This document shows positions 28,877-62,458 of a stretch of DNA of 64,000 bases, one piece after another. The position numbers were made by a program, and so were the translations under genes. Position 1 is the first letter of the stretch; the number at the start of each line of letters is the position of its first letter. The notes below the pieces were generated by a model. The model saw nothing but the letters and a program-made list of their open reading frames with translations. It made no database searches and had not been told where the DNA came from. The DNA comes from the human T2T-CHM13v2.0 reference genome, Homo sapiens: positions 28,192,001 through 28,256,000 of the forward strand of contig CP068257.2 in the NCBI GenBank assembly GCA_009914755.4. The letters are read 5' to 3'.

Positions 28877-31750
28877 TTGCAAACCAGGGCATGAGCTGTT
28901 GAGGGCACTTTGGGCCTTTTCAAGACCTGAACTTGGGCTCTAGATCTGACATCATAGACAGTCATCTTGTAGTCTCAAACTATCAAACTAGTATGTATTG
29001 GAACCCTGTGAGATATCACTCATTGTCCTTAGGGCTAGGGAAGCAGTGGTGAAAAAGCTAATTCCTAGCCCATTGAGATATTTTATTACGGAGTGAAAGA
29101 GACACAAATTAAAGTAGTAAAATAAAAAAGAATAATATTGGTTACATATAAAGTCTATAGAGACAATTAAAATACAGGAAGTACTACACAGTCTGTCTGC
29201 AACTTCAGATGGCCAGCCAAAAATACCATCTTTAAAGAGTGATATTTAAGCTGAGATCTGAATGTCAAGAAGGAGCATGAGGAAGAGATTTCCAGCAGAG
29301 GAAATAACTAGACCAAAGGCAGCATATAACTTGACATAAGAAATAAGCCCAGCATCTTAGACCAAGTACAGTATATTGCCAGTGAAGTAGGCAGAAGCCA
29401 GGTGGGCCTTGTAGCTCATGATAAGGTATTTGAATTTTATTTGTATGTAATGAGCAGCCAAAGGAGGGTTTTAAGCAGATTAGTGGGATGTTCTAGTTTG
29501 TGTTCTTAGAAGATTAGGGATAGGGGTTGAGAATAGATCAGCTGGGGAAAGAGGCATAGGAAAGACTTGAAACCCAAGACAAGTAAGAAGGTTATGAAAC
29601 CAAATAAACAACCCAGATGAGAGGATGGTGATGGTGAAGGTGAAAAAATTAACTGATTGGTGATGTTTTTGGAGACACGATCGGTAGGATTTTCTGACAG
29701 ATGAAATGGGAGAGATTTTTTTTTCGAGAAGAATCAAGAGCAGCTAGCTCCTAAAGTTTTGGCTTGAACAACTGGGTGGTTTGAGGAATGTTTGGTAAAG
29801 GATGGAAGACTGGAATTGGGGGGAAACACATTTGGAGAGAAAAGCAAGAGCTTAATCTTGGAAATATTGTTTCAGATTCATACGTAAACATCAGTGTAGA
29901 GATTCCAAGCTGGTCCTTGAATATATGTCTAGATTTCTGGGGTACAAGTAGTGTTGGAGCTAGTTGTGGATTGAAAGTCAGCCCAGTGGTGGGTGTTTAG
30001 TATCATGGGGCTGGGAGAGTCATTCAGAGAGACTCTATAGCGGGAGATAAGCAGAGGACCCCAGGCCCCTGGTCTGGCCCCAGAGACTGTGTGGAGGAAG
30101 ATGAACCAGCAGAGGAGAATGAGAAGTTCTGGTAGTGATTTAGGTGGAAAATTATCAGCATACAGCACCAGAGCAGCCAAAAGAATGAAGTAGCCAATTA
30201 TGTTGAAAACTTTGAGGAGTCAAGAGAAATACAGAGAAATGGCATGTGACATGATCACATGATAATTACAAAGTCTCTCAAATGACTGCAATGCCCCTTG
30301 TGTGTTGTGAACACACAATGAATACCTGTGAAATAAAAAGCCACACACAAAATCAGGCTGATCCCAGTGCTGCATTTTTGCTGAACTGAAAATCGTTCAC
30401 ACATCTATTCTGAAATATTTGCTTAGCCCCACCTAAGTACCAGACACTGTCTAAGCACCGATGATATAGAAGGAGAAAATACAGATACAGTTCTTGCTCT
30501 TCTGGGGCTTACATTGCAGTGAATAAAGTTAGACAATCATCAAAAGGCTTATCAATAATTTATTTTCAGATGATGATAAATGCTATGATGAAAATGATGT
30601 AGAGTGATAGGATGCAGAGTGCCTGAGAGAGGCAGGTAGCTTACAGAAATCTCAGCACAAAGAACAGGAGGATGGAGACGTGGCAGACATAAACACTGAG
30701 AGAGCAGTATTTTAGGCACCACAAAGTCGAAGCCTAAGGACCCCGAGGTTGGAATAAATTTGTTATATTTGAGGAACTGCCAGGAGCTCTGCATTGATGG
30801 GATGAGGACTAAGAGGGAGATTATTATGAGATGAGGTAAGAGAGCTAAGGTGGGGGACAGATGATGCAAATCCACAGGAAGGATTTTAGATTTCATCATT
30901 CAAAGTAAAATTGAAAGTTATTGGAGGGGTTTAATCCAAGGGGTTATATGGATATAACTTTGTTTCAGTTTCAAATGTAAAACACTAGTGCAGGTGTAGA
31001 TAATGAGTGAGCATCAAAGTAACGTGGAAGCAGAGAGGTCAATGCGAAAGCTATCATGGTAGCCCAGGCAAGAAAAAATAGTGGCATGAAATAGTGCGAT
31101 AGAAATGAGCAAAGCGGTAAGTGGCAGAGCTGGGATGCCCACAATGGACCTGTCTGACTTCAAATTTGTGTTCTTTCCCATGATTTCACACTGCCTTCCA
31201 AGCCTGGCAATCCCTTGCAGTCTGGCGAGAATGCAGGAGTCAGTTACATAGCTACACGCCAAGTAACTAAGAAATGTTTCTTACAACAATGCATAAATGT
31301 GACAAACTTGGCATTTGTATAAGGAGTTTATGTTAGATCTGTCTGGGAAATAACAATGAAAACAGTGAGTTAAAACACAATAGAAACAACTTAAAGCCTT
31401 TGGCAGGCATTTTTGAGAATTTTTTGTTAGACATTGGCTATTTCCAGAAGACTTCTACCCAACAATAAATAATTTTCATTGTTATGAAAAGGGTAACCCT
31501 TTACATGGAAAACTTAACAAACAACTAATGTTAATATTAAAAGGATAATAAGCTGCTTCATTTCTAAATTAACAACTAAATAATAATCCTCTGATTATAT
31601 ATTTACATTGTTTTTCTTTGGATCTAACTTGGCCATTACTGGATTTAAGATTTGAGTTATCATGTCAAGACTTTAACCACCTTCAGCTCGAACATCAAAC
31701 CACTAAATTTCATCACCCCCTAGTCTCCTGTGAAGGCAGTAATTTTTCCA

Positions 31751-32048
31751 TTTTTATTTATTTATTCAAGACAGAATCTTGCTCTGTTGCCCAGTCTGGA
31801 GTGCGGTGTCACGATCTTGGCTCACTGCAGCATCCGCCTCCCAGGCTCAAGCAATTCTCTTGCCTCAGCCCCGCCGAGTAGCTGGGATTACAGGCAAGTG
31901 CTATCACGCCTGGCTAAATCTTGTGTTTTTAGTAGAGAAGGGTTTCACTATGTTGGCCAGCTGGTCTCGAACTCCCGGCCCCAAGTGATCTGCCCACTTC
32001 GGTCTCCCAGAGTGCTGGGATTACAGGCATGAGCCACTGTGCCTGGCC
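31751..32048 (-). mobile_element. Alu SINE, minus orientation
   Basis: tttttatttatttattcaagacagaatcttgctctgttgcccagtctggagtgcggtgtcacgatcttggctcactgcag ... ggattacaggcatgagccactgtgcctggcc. Possible short TSD atttttc(c/a)a on both flanks. Confidence 0.95.
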
Positions 32049-32756
32049 TATTTTTCAATTTTTAGAGAAAATAAAGGTAATAGAATAACAATTCCTCTGC
32101 TCTCTCTGAGAAGGTGACAATGAAGAATGACCCTCTCTCCACTCAGAGAAGGCTGGATTCTTCAATAGTGACGTTTGCCCATGAAACCCAGTGCATGTTG
32201 TCCTTCTGCCTCATCTCTTCTGCAGTACCAGGTCCTATGTCAGGGGCTCCCAGTGTCTCCCTGGAACCTCTTAATGACAGCAATTATCAGTCACCTCTGT
32301 CAGCTCTCCTTCCTTTAGGAAGTGACTCCCCGGCGGCTGTTCCTATGGGGACCCAGGTATTTCTTATTTCCTCTCAGTGCTAGAAAAATACCCAGGTCTC
32401 CCAGTTGCAGCTGGACTACTCTGTTGTGAAATATCAGGGCAGTTCACAGCATTGCCTTTTACAACAATTGCATGAAAGTCTTCAGAGGAGTTTGTTTCGG
32501 GAGCTAAGGGGCTGCACAAGAGAAGCAGCTAGCTCATGATACCACTCCTGCCAAGCCATGCCTGTAGCTCTGCTCAGTGACAGAGTCTGGCTTTTCATTG
32601 GTGCAAAATCTCATTCTCCTTGAAGAAGATTTACTTCATAGAAAAGCCCTTCACTCCACCCTGGCAGTCTCAGAAGTCATATACTCAAGGGGCCAAACAC
32701 ACAACTTCTTTGCACACCTCCCCACAGGATCAAAGGATCCTAGCCACAGCTTTGGC

Positions 32757-32851
32757 AGTTCTGAAGTTTCTCAGGAAAGTGATACAACATAAATTCTACA
32801 TTTTTTTTGTAGAATTTATGTTGTATCACTTTCCTGAGAAACTTCAGAACT
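32757..32851. other. Perfect inverted repeat (hairpin/cruciform-capable): 44-bp arms at 32757-32800 and 32808-32851, separated by a 7-nt T loop
   Basis: agttctgaagtttctcaggaaagtgatacaacataaattctaca + ttttttt + tgtagaatttatgttgtatcactttcctgagaaacttcagaact. The arms are exact reverse complements. The right arm ends exactly where the truncated L1 begins (32852). Confidence 0.95.
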
Positions 32852-33266
32852 CACATATACACCATCGAATACTATGCAGCCATAAAAAATGATGAGTTCA
32901 TGTCCTTTGTAGGGACATGGATGAAGCTGGAAACCATCATTCTCAGCAAACTATCGCAAGGACGAAAAACCAAACACCGCATGTTCTCACTCATAGGTGG
33001 GAATTGAACAATGAGAACACTTGGACACAGGAAGGGGAACATCACACACCGGGGCCTGTTGTGGGGTGGGGGGAGGAGGGAGGGATAGCATTAGAAGATA
33101 TACCTAATGTAAATGACGAATTAATGGATGCAGCACACCAACATGGCACATGTATATATATGTAACTAACCTGCACGTTGTGCACATGTACCCTAGAACT
33201 TAAAGTATAATAAAAAAGTATATATATATAAAATAAAATGAAATAAAAAAACAAAAAAAAATAAAT
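32852..33266 (+). mobile_element. LINE-1 3' end (end of ORF2 plus 3' UTR, L1PA-like), 5'-truncated, with an A-rich tail
   Basis: cacatatacaccatcgaatactatgcagccataaaaaatgatgagttcatgtcctttgtagggacatggatgaagctggaaaccatcattctcagcaaactatcgcaaggacgaaaaaccaaacaccgcatgttctcactcataggtgggaattgaacaatgagaacacttggacacaggaaggggaacatcacacaccggggcctgttgtggggtggggggagg...cctaatgtaaatgacgaattaatggatgcagcacaccaacatggcacatgtatatatatgtaactaacctgcacgttgtgcacatgtaccctagaacttaaagtataataaaaaa is the canonical primate L1 3' end. The tail is aaaagtatatatatataaaataaaatgaaataaaaaaacaaaaaaaaataaa. Confidence 0.9.
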
Positions 33267-34939
33267 TGTAAGAAGGCTCAAGAATCATTATTGATAGGAA
33301 TAATGTATTTTAAATTACTGACAGTTCCACTGCCCTCTCTTCTAGCCTCACAGAATGATAGTCAACAGCTAAGAAATTTCCAAGAAGTACTTGAATGTAG
33401 GGGGCACTCCCGTCTCCTCACACTGGGAAGGTAAGACTGCAAGGCTTCTTTCAAGTCCAGCAGTAATGCACTTGGCCAGTTGACATCAAAGGTGGGTCCT
33501 GAGGCTGAAAAGGATGATTTTGATTTATCAGCACTGGGTGGGGACGCTAACCTGGGCTCCCGATTCTTCTCTGATAAGCACCACATTATTATCTTGCTAG
33601 GCCTGAGAATGCTCTTTCATGTTTTGGAATTTGTAGTCAGACAAATGAAGTTTGAATTCTGCCTCTGCTCTTTTCTATCTGGGAGAGCCCAGGCAGGTAT
33701 TGTAACTTTTGAGTAGCTTAGTTCTATCTTATGTAATGTGGAAATAATGATACGTAACTCATGGTTTATAGGCAGAAGTAAATGAGAAACCATCTATAGT
33801 ACTCAGGACTCATCTTGGCACACTGTGTTTATTCAATAAATACCAGTGATTATTATATATTGCTCTTCATTTACAAAGGAAGAAAGTGCAGGGCATAAAG
33901 GGACCTCACTTGATGTTTCATAAAGACACATCATGGAGGAAAGAATAAGAATCAAAGACTTTTAACTTTCACTCTAGGCCAGGGTTTGTTAAGAGACCAA
34001 TAGCATACGAGTAAGATGCCTGGTGTCTAACTGATCCTCTTGGGGACTCCAGAGAAAATAAGAGGCTATCTACTCTAAGCCTTTTGACTGCTGGAAACCT
34101 CCTAGCTGCAGCTTGTGAGCCCTGGGCAGAGTTACAGCCTGCTGCTGTTACTGCCAACCTGGGGGAGTGACAGCATAATTGGATGCCTCTCTGTCTTTTG
34201 GCTCAAGACAAGGGCAAGGAAGAATGCCCACCTGCAGGGAGGAAGTAGAGTCCAGAAGACAGAAATTTTGACAAATAGGGAACTCATCTGCCTCTCTCAC
34301 CAGCTCTGTCCTCATCTTAGATCTGCAAGCCCTCACCTGAGCTCCCTTCCTGAATGACTTGAACCACAGGGACAAATTATGTCCACAAATGGGTCAAAGA
34401 TAACTATGTGCCACACCAGGAGGGTATGTAGGATTTGTGACCTTTGGATTGCAATTATTTGTTGACAACGCCTTTGGCAATGTGGTTGCTTTAAATGCAA
34501 AGCATGTAGCTGAGACATGAGTGTAATTTGGAGGAGAGTTAGATAATTATTGCATCGTTTAAATATTTATATATTTAAAAAAATTTAAATTGTAGAGTGA
34601 AAGAAGCAGTGCAAAAGAACATCTAGATCCATAGTTTTCAATACAGTAGCCACTAGCCTCATGTGGCTTTTGAACATTTGAAAGAGCCAGTGGCTGGTCC
34701 AGATTGAGTATGATATAAATAGGAGATATGAATATTGAAGAGAGTATAAACATAGAAAAACATTAATTTTAACTATCACATATTGGAAATGATAATATTT
34801 TGGATATATGGAGTTAACAGAATATATTATAAAATTCATTTCATCTGGTTTTTTTTTTTAACTTCTTTCAAAGTGGCTACTAGAAAATTTTAAATTACGT
34901 ATGTGACTCACTTTTGTGGTAGAGTCATTGAAATTTTTT

Positions 34940-35855
34940 GCAAAGACAAGCATGTCATCTGGAAATAAGAGATAGTTTTATGTCTTCCAATCTCCCGGTT
35001 GTCTATTTCTTTTATTTGCCTATTGCAGTGGCAAGAACTTTCAGCCTCATGTTGAATGATAGAAATGAGAAAGAATGTCTTTCTTCGTTCCCAATCTTAT
35101 GGGGAAATCACTCAGTCTTTCATCATTAAGATGATAACTGTAGCTTTTTGTACTTACTCTTTTTTTTTTCTTTTGGAGACAGGGTCTCACTCTGTCACCC
35201 AGGTTGGAGTGCAGCAGTGCAGTCTCAGCTCACTGCAACTCTGCTACCTGGGCTCAAGTGATTCTCCTATCTCAGCCTCCTGAGTAGTTGGGACTACAGG
35301 CACATGCCACTAAGCCTGGCTGATTTTTGTATTTTTTTTGTAGAGACAGGGTTTTGTCATATTGCCCAGGCTGGTCTCAAACTCCCGGACTCAAGCGATC
35401 TGCCCTCTTCGGCCTCCCAAAGTGTGGGATTATAGGTGTGAGCCAACACGCCCGGCTGCACTTACTCTTAATCAAACTCATTCCCTTCTTTTCCTAACTT
35501 GCTGAGAATCTTTCTAATGAATGAATATTGGGTTTTGCCAAATGTATTTTCTGCATAAATGTATTTGATTATATGCATTTTTCTTGTTTTGCCTGTTGAT
35601 ATGGTGGATTGCATTAATTTCTTTGTAAATCTTGAACCAGCCTTAAATACCTAGAATAAGTCCATTTAATTATGTTGTATAATTCTTTTTAATATGTTAT
35701 TGGATTCAGCTTGCTAATATTTTGTTGGGGATTTTTGCATCAAAATCTTTGAGAGATATTGTTTTGTAGTCCTTGTTATGTTTTCAATTTTTAATTTTGT
35801 ATTGTCTTTGTCTAGGTAATATTGCCCTTATAATTATTACTTATATTTAATTTAT
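34940..35855 (-). mobile_element. Older L1 (L1P/L1M) ORF2-region fragment, antisense; interrupted by the Alu at 35161-35456 and bounded by the Alu at 35850
   Basis: caagcatgtcatctggaaataagagatag...cctcatgttgaatgatagaaatgagaaagaatg corresponds to L1 antisense ...ATCATGTCATCTGCAAACAGGGACAATTTGAC...ACACTATGTTGAATAGGAGTGGTGAGAGAGGGCATCC. After the Alu, tattttctgcataaatgtatttgattatatgcatttttcttg...cttgaaccagcc...ggattcagcttgctaatattttgttggggatttttgcatcaaaatctttgagagatattgttttgtagtcc corresponds to antisense ...CTTTTCTGCATCTATTGAGATAATCATGTGGTTTTTG...TTGAACCAGCC...GGATTCGGTTTGCCAGTATTTTATTGAGGATTTTTGCATCAATGTTCATCAAGGATATTGGTCTAAAATTC. These matches are from memory of the L1 consensus. Confidence 0.7.
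35161..35456 (-). mobile_element. Alu SINE, minus orientation, inserted into the L1 fragment
   Basis: tttttttttcttttggagacagggtctcactctgtcacccaggttggagtgcagcagtgcagtctcagctcactgcaac ... gtgtgagccaacacgcccggc. TSD (tg)tacttactct (35149-35160) / (tg)cacttactct (35457-35468). Confidence 0.95.
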
Positions 35856-36138
35856 GTTTTTTAGAGATAGAGTCTTGCCCAGGCTGTGGTGCAATGGCAT
35901 GATCATGGCTCACTGAAACCTTGATCTCCTGTACTCAAGTGATTCTCCCACCTCAGCCTCCCCAGTAGCTGGGACTACAGGTGTGCACCACCAGGCCTGG
36001 CTAATTGTCTTATTTTTTTGTGGCAATAGGGTCTCCCTATGTTGCCTAGTCTGGTCTCAAACTCCTGGCCTCAAGCAACCCTCTTGCCTTGACCTTTCAA
36101 ATTACTGGTATTACAGGCATGAATCATCACACCTGGCC
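35850..36138 (-). mobile_element. Alu SINE, older and more diverged, minus orientation
   Basis: ttttttagagatagagtcttgcccaggctgtggtgcaatggcatgatcatggctcactgaaacc ... ctggtattacaggcatgaatcatcacacctggcc. Possible TSD acttatattt / acttattttt. Confidence 0.9.
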
Positions 36139-41365: not shown

Positions 41366-41925
<560 letters not shown>

Positions 41926-61800: not shown

Positions 61801-62003
61801 TCTTTCTGTCTGCAGGAAAAAGGGTAGAATAAATACTAGATTGGCAACTAGAAGTATCAGGTGAACTATGGTAAAAACCAACTCCCCAAAAGCTAGAAAT
61901 GAGGGGCCTGCTTCCCCCAACAACCTCAAAGGACTAGGAAGAACATCAATGAGGGAGAAGCCTGCACTCCTTGCCTCCTTGTCTCCATTTTATAGCCCCT
62001 CCC

Positions 62004-62027
62004 TCCCTCCCTCCCTCCTTTCTTTTT

Positions 62028-62089
<62 letters not shown>

Positions 62090-62091
62090 TT

Positions 62092-62123
<32 letters not shown>

Positions 62124-62170
62124 CTTCCTTCCTTCCTTCTTTCTTTCCTTCCTTCCTTCCTTCCTATTTT
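62004..62170 (-). repeat. Polypyrimidine compound microsatellite (CCCT)n(TTTC)n(CT)n(CCTT)n, i.e. the expanded A-tail (on the minus strand) of the Alu at 62171-62458
   Basis: ccctccctccctccctcctttcttttttctttctttctttc...(tttc)n...ctctctctctctctctctctctcc(ttcc)n. It lies between the Alu body and the upstream TSD copy. Confidence 0.95.
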
Positions 62171-62458
62171 TGAGACAGAGTTTCTCCTCTGTCACTAAGG
62201 CTGGAGTGCAGTGGCATGATCACAGCTCACTGCAGCCTTGACCTCCTGGGTTCAAGAGATCCTCACCCCTAGGCCTCCTCAGTAGCTGGGACTACAGATG
62301 TATGCCACCATGCCCAGCTAATTTTTGTACTTTTTTGTACAGATGGTGTTTTGCCATATTGACCAGGCTGTTCTCAAACTCCTAGGCTCAAGAAATCCAC
62401 CCATCTCAGCCTCCCAAACTGTTGGGAACCACTTACAGGTGTGAGCCATTCACCCGGC
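62171..62458 (-). mobile_element. Alu SINE, minus orientation, with an expanded tail and a 12-bp TSD
   Basis: tgagacagagtttctcctctgtcactaaggctggagtgcagtggcatgatcacagctcactgcagcc ... ttgggaaccacttacaggtgtgagccattcacccggcc. TSD tagcccctccct at 61992-62003 and 62459-62470. Confidence 0.95.

What the first reader, a model, noticed from the sequence alone, without database searches (positions are those of the whole stretch)
32757..32851. Perfect 44-bp-arm palindrome (7-nt T loop) directly abutting the 5' truncation point of an L1 3' end
The arms at 32757-32800 and 32808-32851 are exact reverse complements with no mismatches. A palindrome of this length should form a very stable hairpin or cruciform. 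In a human genome, perfect long palindromes are rare, are deletion-prone in E. coli clones, and are associated with fragility. The right arm ends at the exact base where the truncated L1 begins (32852, cacatatacacc...). This suggests either that the hairpin-forming site was the L1 integration target, or that the palindrome arose during L1 integration or repair through fold-back synthesis. The arm sequence is not L1-derived as far as I can recognise. The 71-90 aa ORFs at 32577-32892 overlap it and are not credible.
Basis: seen in the sequence. Interest (0 to 1): 0.55.

Follow-up and report, generated by a model that had tools for sequence, protein, structure and literature searches.

The report
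Fold-back flank copy at L1 junction
A perfect 44-bp-arm DNA palindrome sits exactly at the truncated 5' end of an old L1 retrotransposon and is most likely a scar left when the broken target DNA folded back and copied itself during L1 insertion, a rearrangement already seen in cell-culture and cancer genomes.

Summary
32757-32800 and 32808-32851 are exact reverse complements around a T7 loop. The right arm ends at the base before a 5'-truncated, polyadenylated L1 3' end, which starts at 32852 (position 5689 of a 6092-nt L1).

The arm is single-copy and not L1-derived. It matches no Rfam family and looks like no MITE.

Best explanation (confidence about 0.6): the right arm is an inverted duplication of the 5' flank, made during L1 integration. 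The 3' overhang of the 'reciprocal' break end folded back, possibly on a 2-bp CA/TG pairing. It copied about 42-44 nt of its own strand and was then blunt-joined to the L1 cDNA. This outcome is published for induced L1 clones and tumours.

Supporting but weak evidence:
- A 9/10 target-site-duplication candidate sits at the palindrome apex rather than next to the L1.
- The 11-nt apex resembles the reverse complement of a nearby L1 A-tract.

The L1 is 1.9-3.0% diverged, so zero arm mismatches is unlikely but possible (P about 0.09-0.18).

The main rival (about 0.2) is a later replication template switch. Only orthologous primate loci can decide, and none could be reached with these tools. I rate it a new member of a known kind, of modest interest.

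The parts
32757..32800 (+). Left arm. It is continuous with the unique 5' flank and is inferred to be the original genomic copy that served as template.
   Evidence: It contains the target-site-duplication candidate in direct orientation.
32801..32807 (+). T7 loop at the apex of the fold-back.
32808..32851 (+). Right arm. It is an exact reverse complement of the left arm and is inferred to be the newly synthesised inverted copy lying inside the insertion.
   Evidence: It ends at the base before the L1.
32799..32809 (+). Apex 11-mer CATTTTTTTTG. Its ends, CA and TG, could give the 2-bp pairing that primed the snap-back. It differs by one base from the reverse complement of L1 32881-32891.
   Evidence: At up to 1 mismatch the 11-mer has 11 other hits in 128 kb of strand, so there is roughly a 4% chance of one on the L1 minus strand. 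This is a post-hoc lead, not proof.
32852..33217 (+). 5'-truncated L1 3' end of L1PA type. It corresponds to positions 5689 to about 6055 of a 6092-nt full-length L1.
   Evidence: It has 7 private differences in 363 nt, and up to 11 against the closest group.
32881..32891 (+). L1 internal A-tract CATAAAAAATG, a possible template for the apex filler.
33212..33260 (+). Degenerate A-rich L1 tail containing (TA)n and AAAT units.
32789..32798 (+). Candidate 5' target-site duplication ATAAATTCTA, at the end of the left arm and 2 nt before the loop.
   Evidence: It matches at 9 of 10 positions; the null frequency for a 20-nt zone is 3.4%.
33261..33270 (+). Candidate 3' target-site duplication ATAAATTGTA, directly after the A-rich tail.

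Best explanation
The palindrome is a fossil of one aberrant L1 integration.

Proposed sequence of events:
1. L1 endonuclease nicked the bottom strand at an A/T-rich site, around ...ACAAC/ATAAATT on the top strand. Reverse transcription then started from the L1 poly(A).
2. A top-strand break about 10 nt downstream left the upstream ('reciprocal') DNA end with a 3' overhang ending ...ATAAATTCTA.
3. That 3' end acquired a short T-rich filler, CATTTTTTTTG. The filler may have been copied abortively from the L1 RNA A-tract or poly(A), or added without a template.
4. The 3' end snapped back on itself. The 2-bp CA/TG pairing with a T7 loop is enough for this.
5. The folded-back end was extended along its own strand for about 42-44 nt, by ORF2p or a repair polymerase. 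This produced the right arm.
6. The extended end was joined without microhomology to the first-strand L1 cDNA, which had stopped at L1 position 5689.
7. Copying the unfolded hairpin completed the duplex palindrome.

Shown: the perfect inverted copy of the flank, its exact position between the flank and the L1, the blunt junction, and the polyadenylated truncated L1.

Inferred: the order of events, the duplication, the origin of the T-loop and the polymerase.

The palindrome probably has no function. It is a structural scar that can form a very stable hairpin or cruciform.
For: Anatomy:
- The order is flank, left arm, T7, exact inverted copy, 5'-truncated L1, A-tail.
- No duplication flanks the L1 itself. 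The best direct-repeat match to the sequence after the A-tail is ATAAATTCTA against ATAAATTGTA, ending 2 nt before the loop. A 9/10 match in a pre-specified 20-nt zone occurs in 3.4% of null zones.
- The arm/L1 junction has no microhomology.

Precedent:
[quoted passage not shown] Examples come from an induced-L1 clone and from a tumour.
- Those cases show 2-bp homology at the inversion junction and a small hairpin, and the authors state that the target-site duplication is preserved.

Enzymology:
- ORF2p copies DNA templates and extends short hairpins and 5-10-nt primers efficiently. It also adds non-templated bases and jumps between templates (PMC10830420).
- Poly(T) plus non-L1 filler between the 5' duplication and a sense L1 is a documented germline architecture (PMC2837659).

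Other support:
- The apex 11-mer matches the reverse complement of L1 32881-32891 at 10 of 11 positions.
- The arm is single-copy.
- None of 48 other 5'-truncated L1 junctions in the sample has an inverted repeat of at least 10 nt ending at the junction. The association is therefore not a general property of L1 flanks.
- The L1 carries 1.9-3.0% private divergence. That gives P of about 0.09-0.18 for no substitution in 88 arm bases if the two are the same age. This is compatible.
Against: - No orthologous empty or filled site could be examined, so it is not shown that the palindrome and the L1 arose together.
- The duplication candidate is short and has one mismatch. I examined three possible positions for it, so the effective p is about 0.1.
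- The inferred endonuclease site (bottom strand ...AATTTAT/GTTG) is a poor match to TTTT/AA.
- The 7-11 apex bases need an extra step, such as filler or abortive twin priming. The published cases do not require this step.
- Perfect identity of the arms next to an L1 that has 7-11 substitutions in 363 nt mildly favours a younger origin.
- The L1 A-tract match was noticed post hoc.
Confidence: 0.6

Rival explanations
1. A replication template-switch mutation, unrelated to L1 integration, made the palindrome. At some time after the L1 inserted, a nascent strand paused at the T-tract, copied about 44 nt of the opposite or nascent strand backwards, and returned inside the L1. This overwrote the original L1 5' junction and its duplication.
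For: - Short-range template switches are common in great apes: 4017 significant events were reported. They create perfect nearby inverted repeats and are associated with poly(dA:dT) tracts (PMC7954356). The apex here is a T7/T8 tract.
- A younger origin fits the zero mismatches in 88 nt better than an L1-age origin, for which P is about 0.09-0.18.
- An L1 truncation point is arbitrary. An overwrite would therefore also look like an exact abutment.
Against: - The duplication candidate at the apex and the L1-like apex filler would both have to be coincidences, each at about 3-4%.
- There is no microhomology at the return junction.
- The event would have to fall within about 50 nt of an L1 5' junction.
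Confidence: 0.2
2. The palindrome existed before the L1. The L1 then integrated at the base of its right arm, for example at a nick at the foot of an extruded cruciform, without a target-site duplication.
For: - Both L1 junctions would then lie exactly at the cruciform base.
- In that case the bottom strand at the 3' junction would read ...ATTTATTT/AGTTC, an acceptable endonuclease-like site (read).
Against: - It requires an unexplained perfect palindrome that is older than the L1.
- It also requires a rare insertion without a duplication.
- It leaves the direct-repeat match at the apex unexplained.
- The arm is single-copy, with no TE-like termini or flanking duplications.
Confidence: 0.06
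3. The palindrome is an assembly or library artefact, such as a hairpin chimera, and is not present in the genome.
For: A palindrome of almost the same size (43-nt arms, 9-nt loop) sits at position 1 of an unrelated metagenome contig, L048. This shows that assemblers can produce such structures at contig ends.
Against: - The palindrome lies in the middle of a gap-free 64-kb window with no Ns.
- It sits at a biologically meaningful junction.
- Cloning in E. coli tends to delete palindromes rather than create them (established knowledge).
Confidence: 0.05
4. The 95-mer is a palindromic transposable element (a MITE) or a conserved microRNA precursor next to which the L1 happened to insert.
For: A perfect hairpin of pre-miRNA-like size gives sub-threshold, structure-only Rfam hits.
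Against: - There are no other copies in the window or in 459 kb of human-derived contigs.
- There are none in the metagenome or viral collections.
- The Rfam hits are all far below gathering scores, for example 59 against 230 and 57.5 against 90, and occur on both strands.
- There is no TA or 8-bp duplication around it.
- The sequence was not found in full-text literature.
- A genuine old MITE in the same window has arms only 73% complementary.
Confidence: 0.03

Closest known systems
[quoted passage not shown] 4D-E)
   Same: In both, a polyadenylated 5'-truncated L1 is preceded by an inverted copy of the adjacent upstream genomic sequence. Both have a small hairpin apex with 2-bp homology. In both, the duplication lies between the poly(A)-side breakpoint and the fold-back apex.
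   Different: - Those cases are somatic or experimental, whereas this one is a fixed and old germline copy (L1 about 2-3% diverged).
- This apex carries an extra T-rich filler of 7-11 nt.
- The duplication here is only a 9/10 candidate.
- The sizes of the published duplications were not available to me.
Twin priming and 5' poly(T) L1 loci (Ostertag and Kazazian model; Meyer et al. 2010, PMC2837659)
   Same: The second, top-strand 3' end is used as a primer during integration. A T-run and non-L1 filler lie between the 5' duplication and a sense-oriented truncated L1.
   Different: - The inverted segment here is flanking genomic DNA, not L1.
- The T-run is 7-8 nt, against 14-39 nt in those loci.
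- The L1 here keeps a long A-tail, so the primary priming site is the usual one.
Short-range replication template-switch mutations (Loytynoja and Goldman 2017; Walker et al. 2021, PMC7954356)
   Same: They also make a perfect reverse-complement copy of adjacent sequence in one step, often at poly(dA:dT) tracts, and create stable hairpins.
   Different: They occur at replication forks with no need for a retrotransposon. They predict neither a duplication at the apex nor abutment on an L1 end.
Palindromic MITEs such as the MER5A-like element at 43835-43989 of this window
   Same: Both are short inverted-repeat DNA capable of forming a hairpin.
   Different: MITEs are multi-copy, have diverged arms (73% here) and have flanking duplications. 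This palindrome is single-copy and perfect. The MER5A name is from my memory of the consensus, not from a tool.

Membership tests
L1-integration-coupled inverted duplication (reciprocal-end fold-back) | A polyadenylated L1 insertion at the junction | tested here: met
   The L1 3' end at 32852-33217 aligns to positions 5689 to about 6055 of a 6092-nt L1 and is followed by an A-rich tail.
L1-integration-coupled inverted duplication (reciprocal-end fold-back) | An inverted copy of the immediately adjacent upstream genomic DNA lying between that DNA and the L1 5' end | tested here: met
   The arms are 44/44 complementary, and the right arm ends at 32851, one base before the L1.
L1-integration-coupled inverted duplication (reciprocal-end fold-back) | A target-site duplication between the poly(A)-side breakpoint and the fold-back apex | tested here: inconclusive
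   ATAAATTCTA (32789-32798) matches ATAAATTGTA (33261-33270) at 9 of 10 positions. The null frequency is 3.4% per zone, and three zones were considered.
L1-integration-coupled inverted duplication (reciprocal-end fold-back) | Short microhomology at the inversion junction | tested here: inconclusive
   CA (32799-32800) and TG (32808-32809) flank the T7 loop. In a perfect palindrome this cannot be told apart from copied sequence.
L1-integration-coupled inverted duplication (reciprocal-end fold-back) | An L1 endonuclease-type target site (TTTT/AA) at the priming junction | tested here: inconclusive
   The inferred bottom strand is ...AATTTAT/GTTG or ...GAATTT/ATG. It is T-rich but a poor match to the consensus (read).
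L1-integration-coupled inverted duplication (reciprocal-end fold-back) | Palindrome and L1 appear together in phylogeny, and the empty site lacks both | not testable with these tools
   No primate genome is reachable. ORF look-ups, the protein search and the collection scans were all empty.
Classical twin-priming 5' inversion | The inverted segment is L1 sequence | tested here: not met
   The arms have no similarity to full-length L1s. Only the 11-nt apex resembles the reverse complement of L1.
MITE / palindromic transposon | Multiple dispersed copies | tested here: not met
   The only matches are the two arms in the window. There are none in 459 kb of human-derived contigs and none in the metagenome or viral scans. 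Sampling of the human genome was small, so this is not exhaustive.
MITE / palindromic transposon | The element is flanked by its own target-site duplication (TA or 8 bp) | tested here: not met
   The flanks are ...gctttggc and cacatata..., and the right flank is L1.
microRNA precursor family | A match to a curated family at its gathering score | tested here: not met
   The best hits are 59 bits against 230 (MIR7533) and 57.5 against 90 (mir-561), on both strands, which means structure only. The window has no gathering-level hits.
microRNA precursor family | Evidence of transcription and processed small RNAs | not testable with these tools
   No expression data are available.
Replication template-switch mutation | The descendant carries a reverse-complement copy of nearby sequence that replaces the ancestral sequence | not testable with these tools
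   The inverted copy is present, but the ancestral sequence is unknown.

The most novel reading that the evidence does not exclude
L1 integration created, in the germline, a perfect 44-bp hairpin that has been kept mismatch-free for 10-18 Myr. The cause would be either function as a hairpin RNA (a new miRNA, endo-siRNA or dsRNA locus born from a retrotransposition accident) or continual intra-palindrome correction. If so, aberrant L1 insertion would be a recurrent source of new hairpin genes, alongside replication template switching.
Probability: 0.05. Interest if true: 0.7.

Novelty: new member of a known kind. Interest (0 to 1): 0.35.

Why it matters
If orthologues confirm it, this would be a fixed germline example of a rearrangement class so far documented in L1-induced cell clones and tumours. 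That class is fold-back remodelling of the L1-generated break end.

It would show three things:
- The process also shapes inherited genomes.
- It can create long perfect palindromes in one step.
- Such palindromes can persist for millions of years.

It also gives a concrete locus for three tests: whether such scars are fragile, whether they vary in length between individuals, and whether they yield hairpin RNAs. It does not open a new field.

Tried and rejected
Routes to orthologous or independent assemblies all failed:
- Exact-product look-ups of four local ORFs.
- A protein homology search with the 90-aa ORF that spans the palindrome.
- An exact 24-mer scan of metagenome contigs and a 22-mer scan of viral contigs.
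- A full-text search for arm 20-mers in DNA and RNA alphabets.

Known RNA families were rejected. Rfam gives only sub-threshold, two-stranded, structure-only hits.

A MITE or other TE was rejected as far as the data allow.

An alternative duplication reading was rejected. This reading takes TTGTA at 32807-32811 and at 33266-33270, with the T-run native to the target. It would put the primer end at ...TACAA-3' on the bottom strand, which cannot pair with poly(A), and the T-run would predict an L1 in the opposite orientation.

Three RNA- or cDNA-based models were rejected:
- Copying of a local polyadenylated transcript (dual priming): the top-strand primer is identical to such an RNA rather than complementary to it, and the poly(A) site would have to coincide exactly with the nick.
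- Extension of the first-strand cDNA into the left flank: the bottom strand is interrupted at the first nick, so it cannot template a contiguous copy of flank plus duplication.
- T-tail pairing with the AAA of ATAAATT: this would not copy TGTAGAATTT.

I considered finding a coding exon in the window, so as to fetch orthologous gene ranges, and dropped the idea. ORFs of at least 90 aa are Alu-derived or low-complexity, and the chance of success did not justify a 13-CPU-hour search.

Full report
OBSERVATION

The window reads ...cacagctttggc AGTTCTGAAGTTTCTCAGGAAAGTGATACAACATAAATTCTACA TTTTTTT TGTAGAATTTATGTTGTATCACTTTCCTGAGAAACTTCAGAACT cacatatacacc.... The repeat finder reports arms 32757-32800 and 32808-32851, 44 nt, 100% complementary, 7 nt apart.

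- At up to three mismatches the arm occurs only at these two places in the window, with none expected by chance.
- A scan for perfect inverted repeats with loops up to 20 nt finds 15-nt arms as the next best in the window.
- In 459 kb of other human-derived DNA the same scan finds only (TA)n runs and one palindrome at a contig end.
- The strand folds at -50.9 kcal/mol as DNA (z = -16) and -77.2 kcal/mol as RNA (z = -17).
- The arms are 32% G+C, so this is not an AT-dinucleotide palindrome.
- The window has no Ns.

THE NEIGHBOUR IS AN L1 3' END, AND THE ABUTMENT IS EXACT

I fetched 145 L1 3' ends from human contamination in bacterial-genome and metagenome contigs, using a 25-mer.

- Aligned to a full-length copy (L005, 6092 nt), the window's L1 begins at reference position 5689, which is window 32852.
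- Upstream, the L1 reads ...AAGAAAATGTGG, whereas the window reads ...CTTCAGAACT. The junction is therefore blunt, with no shared bases.
- The L1 runs to ...AAAGTATAATAAAAAA and then a degenerate A-rich tail to about 33260.
- The arms and left flank have no similarity to any of the L1s or other human DNA in that sample.
- The flanks are single-copy in the window.

WHAT IT IS NOT

- Rfam gives only sub-threshold hits, on both strands, to many unrelated miRNA models. Examples are 59 bits against a gathering score of 230, and 57.5 against 90. This is the signature of any perfect hairpin. Nothing in the window reaches a gathering score.
- The arm is absent from metagenome and viral contig collections and from full-text literature.
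- It has no TA or 8-bp flanking duplication.
- For contrast, the MITE-like inverted repeat at 43835-43989 has arms only 73% complementary.
- The overlapping ORFs have no homologues.

AGE

Seven L1 positions differ from every sub-group consensus I could build: 32866, 32964, 33077, 33095, 33120, 33128 and 33157. Against the most similar group the count is 11 of 363. Divergence from its source is therefore about 1.9-3.0%.

From memory of published L1PA ages (Khan et al. 2006, about 0.17% per Myr), this corresponds to an L1PA3/4-like element of roughly 11-18 Myr. If the palindrome is equally old, the chance of no substitution in its 88 paired bases is about 0.09-0.18. That is uncomfortable but acceptable, and no special maintenance mechanism is required.

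TARGET-SITE DUPLICATION

Nothing resembling the sequence after the A-tail is found next to the L1 5' end or left of the palindrome. The best direct match is AACATAAATTCTA (32785-32797) against AAAATAAATTGTA (33257-33269). Its core is ATAAATTCTA / ATAAATTGTA, ending two bases before the loop.

A 9/10 match within a given 20-nt zone occurs in 3.4% of null zones from the window. Allowing for the three positions I considered, p is about 0.1.

If real, the duplication places the T-loop, the right arm and the L1 together inside the insertion. The empty site would then be ...GTGATACAAC ATAAATTCTA AGAAGGCTC...

An alternative reading uses TTGTA as the duplication, with the T-run native. I rejected it because it leaves a bottom-strand primer ending ...ACAA-3' and predicts the opposite L1 orientation.

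MECHANISM

The right arm contains the reverse complement of flank plus duplication as one contiguous piece. After the first, bottom-strand nick, only the top strand is contiguous across that boundary. The right arm must therefore have been copied from the top strand, starting at its 3' end. That is a snap-back of the upstream ('reciprocal') break end.

[quoted passage not shown] That outcome was observed in a doxycycline-induced L1 clone and in a tumour. Both cases showed 2-bp homology at the inversion junction and small hairpins, and the duplication was preserved (bioRxiv 10.1101/2024.12.14.628481).

ORF2p itself copies DNA, extends short hairpins and 5-10-nt primers, adds non-templated bases and jumps templates (PMC10830420). 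The fold-back extension and the blunt transfer to the cDNA could therefore be its own work. Repair polymerases plus end joining are equally possible.

The apex needs 7-11 bases that are not in the presumed empty site.

- The 11-mer CATTTTTTTTG (32799-32809) has self-complementary ends, CA and TG.
- It differs at one base from the reverse complement of the L1 A-tract at 32881-32891. That tract lies only 30 nt inside the retained L1.
- Such near-matches occur about once per 11.6 kb of strand, which gives roughly a 4% chance for the L1 minus strand. I noticed this post hoc.
- It suggests, but does not show, an abortive twin-priming step before the snap-back.
- Germline L1 loci with a 5' poly(T) and non-L1 filler between the 5' duplication and a sense L1 are documented (PMC2837659).

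RIVALS

1. Replication template switch. Such switches create perfect nearby inverted repeats and favour poly(dA:dT) tracts; 4017 events were found in great apes (PMC7954356). One that returned inside the L1 would overwrite the true 5' junction and look identical. It would also fit the perfect arms better. It makes the apex duplication and the L1-like filler coincidences.

2. Pre-existing palindrome used as target. This would explain why both L1 junctions lie at the arm base. It requires an older unexplained perfect palindrome and an insertion without a duplication.

3. Assembly artefact. This is unlikely in the middle of a gap-free 64-kb sequence. However, the terminal palindrome of contig L048 (43-nt arms, 9-nt loop, position 1) shows such artefacts exist.

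4. A TE or miRNA. Rejected above.

I put these at about 0.2, 0.06, 0.05 and 0.03, against 0.6 for integration-coupled fold-back.

RARITY

Among 48 other 5'-truncated L1 junctions with at least 150 nt of flank in my sample, none has a perfect inverted repeat of 10 nt or more ending within 6 nt of the junction. The arrangement is therefore uncommon. The sample bounds its frequency only at below about 6%.

VERDICT

It remains unproven without orthologous loci.

This is a new, germline and fixed member of a known kind. Interest is modest (0.35). It would rise if primate comparison shows simultaneous origin, or if the hairpin proves to be transcribed, polymorphic or fragile.

Noticed in passing
window 43835-43989: An imperfect palindrome with 77-nt arms that are 73% complementary, 1 nt apart. 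From memory of the consensus it looks like a MER5A-type hAT MITE (cagataaataatgaataatt...ttactcattgtttatctgaaattcaaat). It is a useful contrast to the perfect palindrome.
   Followed up: partly
L048 1-95 (metagenome contig Ga0115842_105211): A perfect palindrome with 43-nt arms and a 9-nt loop lies at the very first base of a contaminant human contig. It is not next to that contig's L1 junction. It is most likely an assembler or library artefact at a contig end. Its total length (95 nt) happens to equal that of the window's palindrome.
   Followed up: partly
loci L001-L025 (GTDB species-representative genomes): Twenty-five contigs deposited as bacterial or archaeal genome sequence contain human L1 3' ends, and several contain near-full-length L1s. 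Examples are Streptomyces, Mycobacterium and Bifidobacterium assemblies. This is human contamination of public prokaryotic assemblies.
   Followed up: no
window 33218-33260: The L1 tail is not a plain poly(A). It reads GTATATATATATAAAATAAAATGAAATAAAAAAACAAAAAAAAAT, which suggests (TA)n and AAAT microsatellites grew from the tail.
   Followed up: no
window 32763-32779 and 33272-33284: There is an imperfect direct similarity, GAAGTTTCTCAGGAA in the left arm against GAAGGCTCAAGAA just after the candidate 3' duplication. It could be chance or an old local duplication in the target.
   Followed up: no
window 41595-42163 and 61868-62173: Long purine/pyrimidine low-complexity tracts of (GAA/GAG)n type give spurious 100-170-aa ORFs rich in KERK or SLSF. 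They have H-DNA-forming potential.
   Followed up: no
window 4063-4226 and 8600-8750: A (TG)n/(CA)n pair forms a 33-nt inverted repeat. Separately, an AT-rich block of ATTAATATT-type repeats contains many overlapping inverted repeats.
   Followed up: no
window 12908-13202, 19971-20228, 21156-21407, 24907-25193, 31741-32060, 35875-36075, 41366-41627, 45615-45910, 46052-46278, 62165-62382; 35593-35743: There are ten Alu copies and one further small L1 fragment. Young repeats cover only about 3 kb of the 64-kb window, and this is the only young L1 3' end in it.
   Followed up: partly
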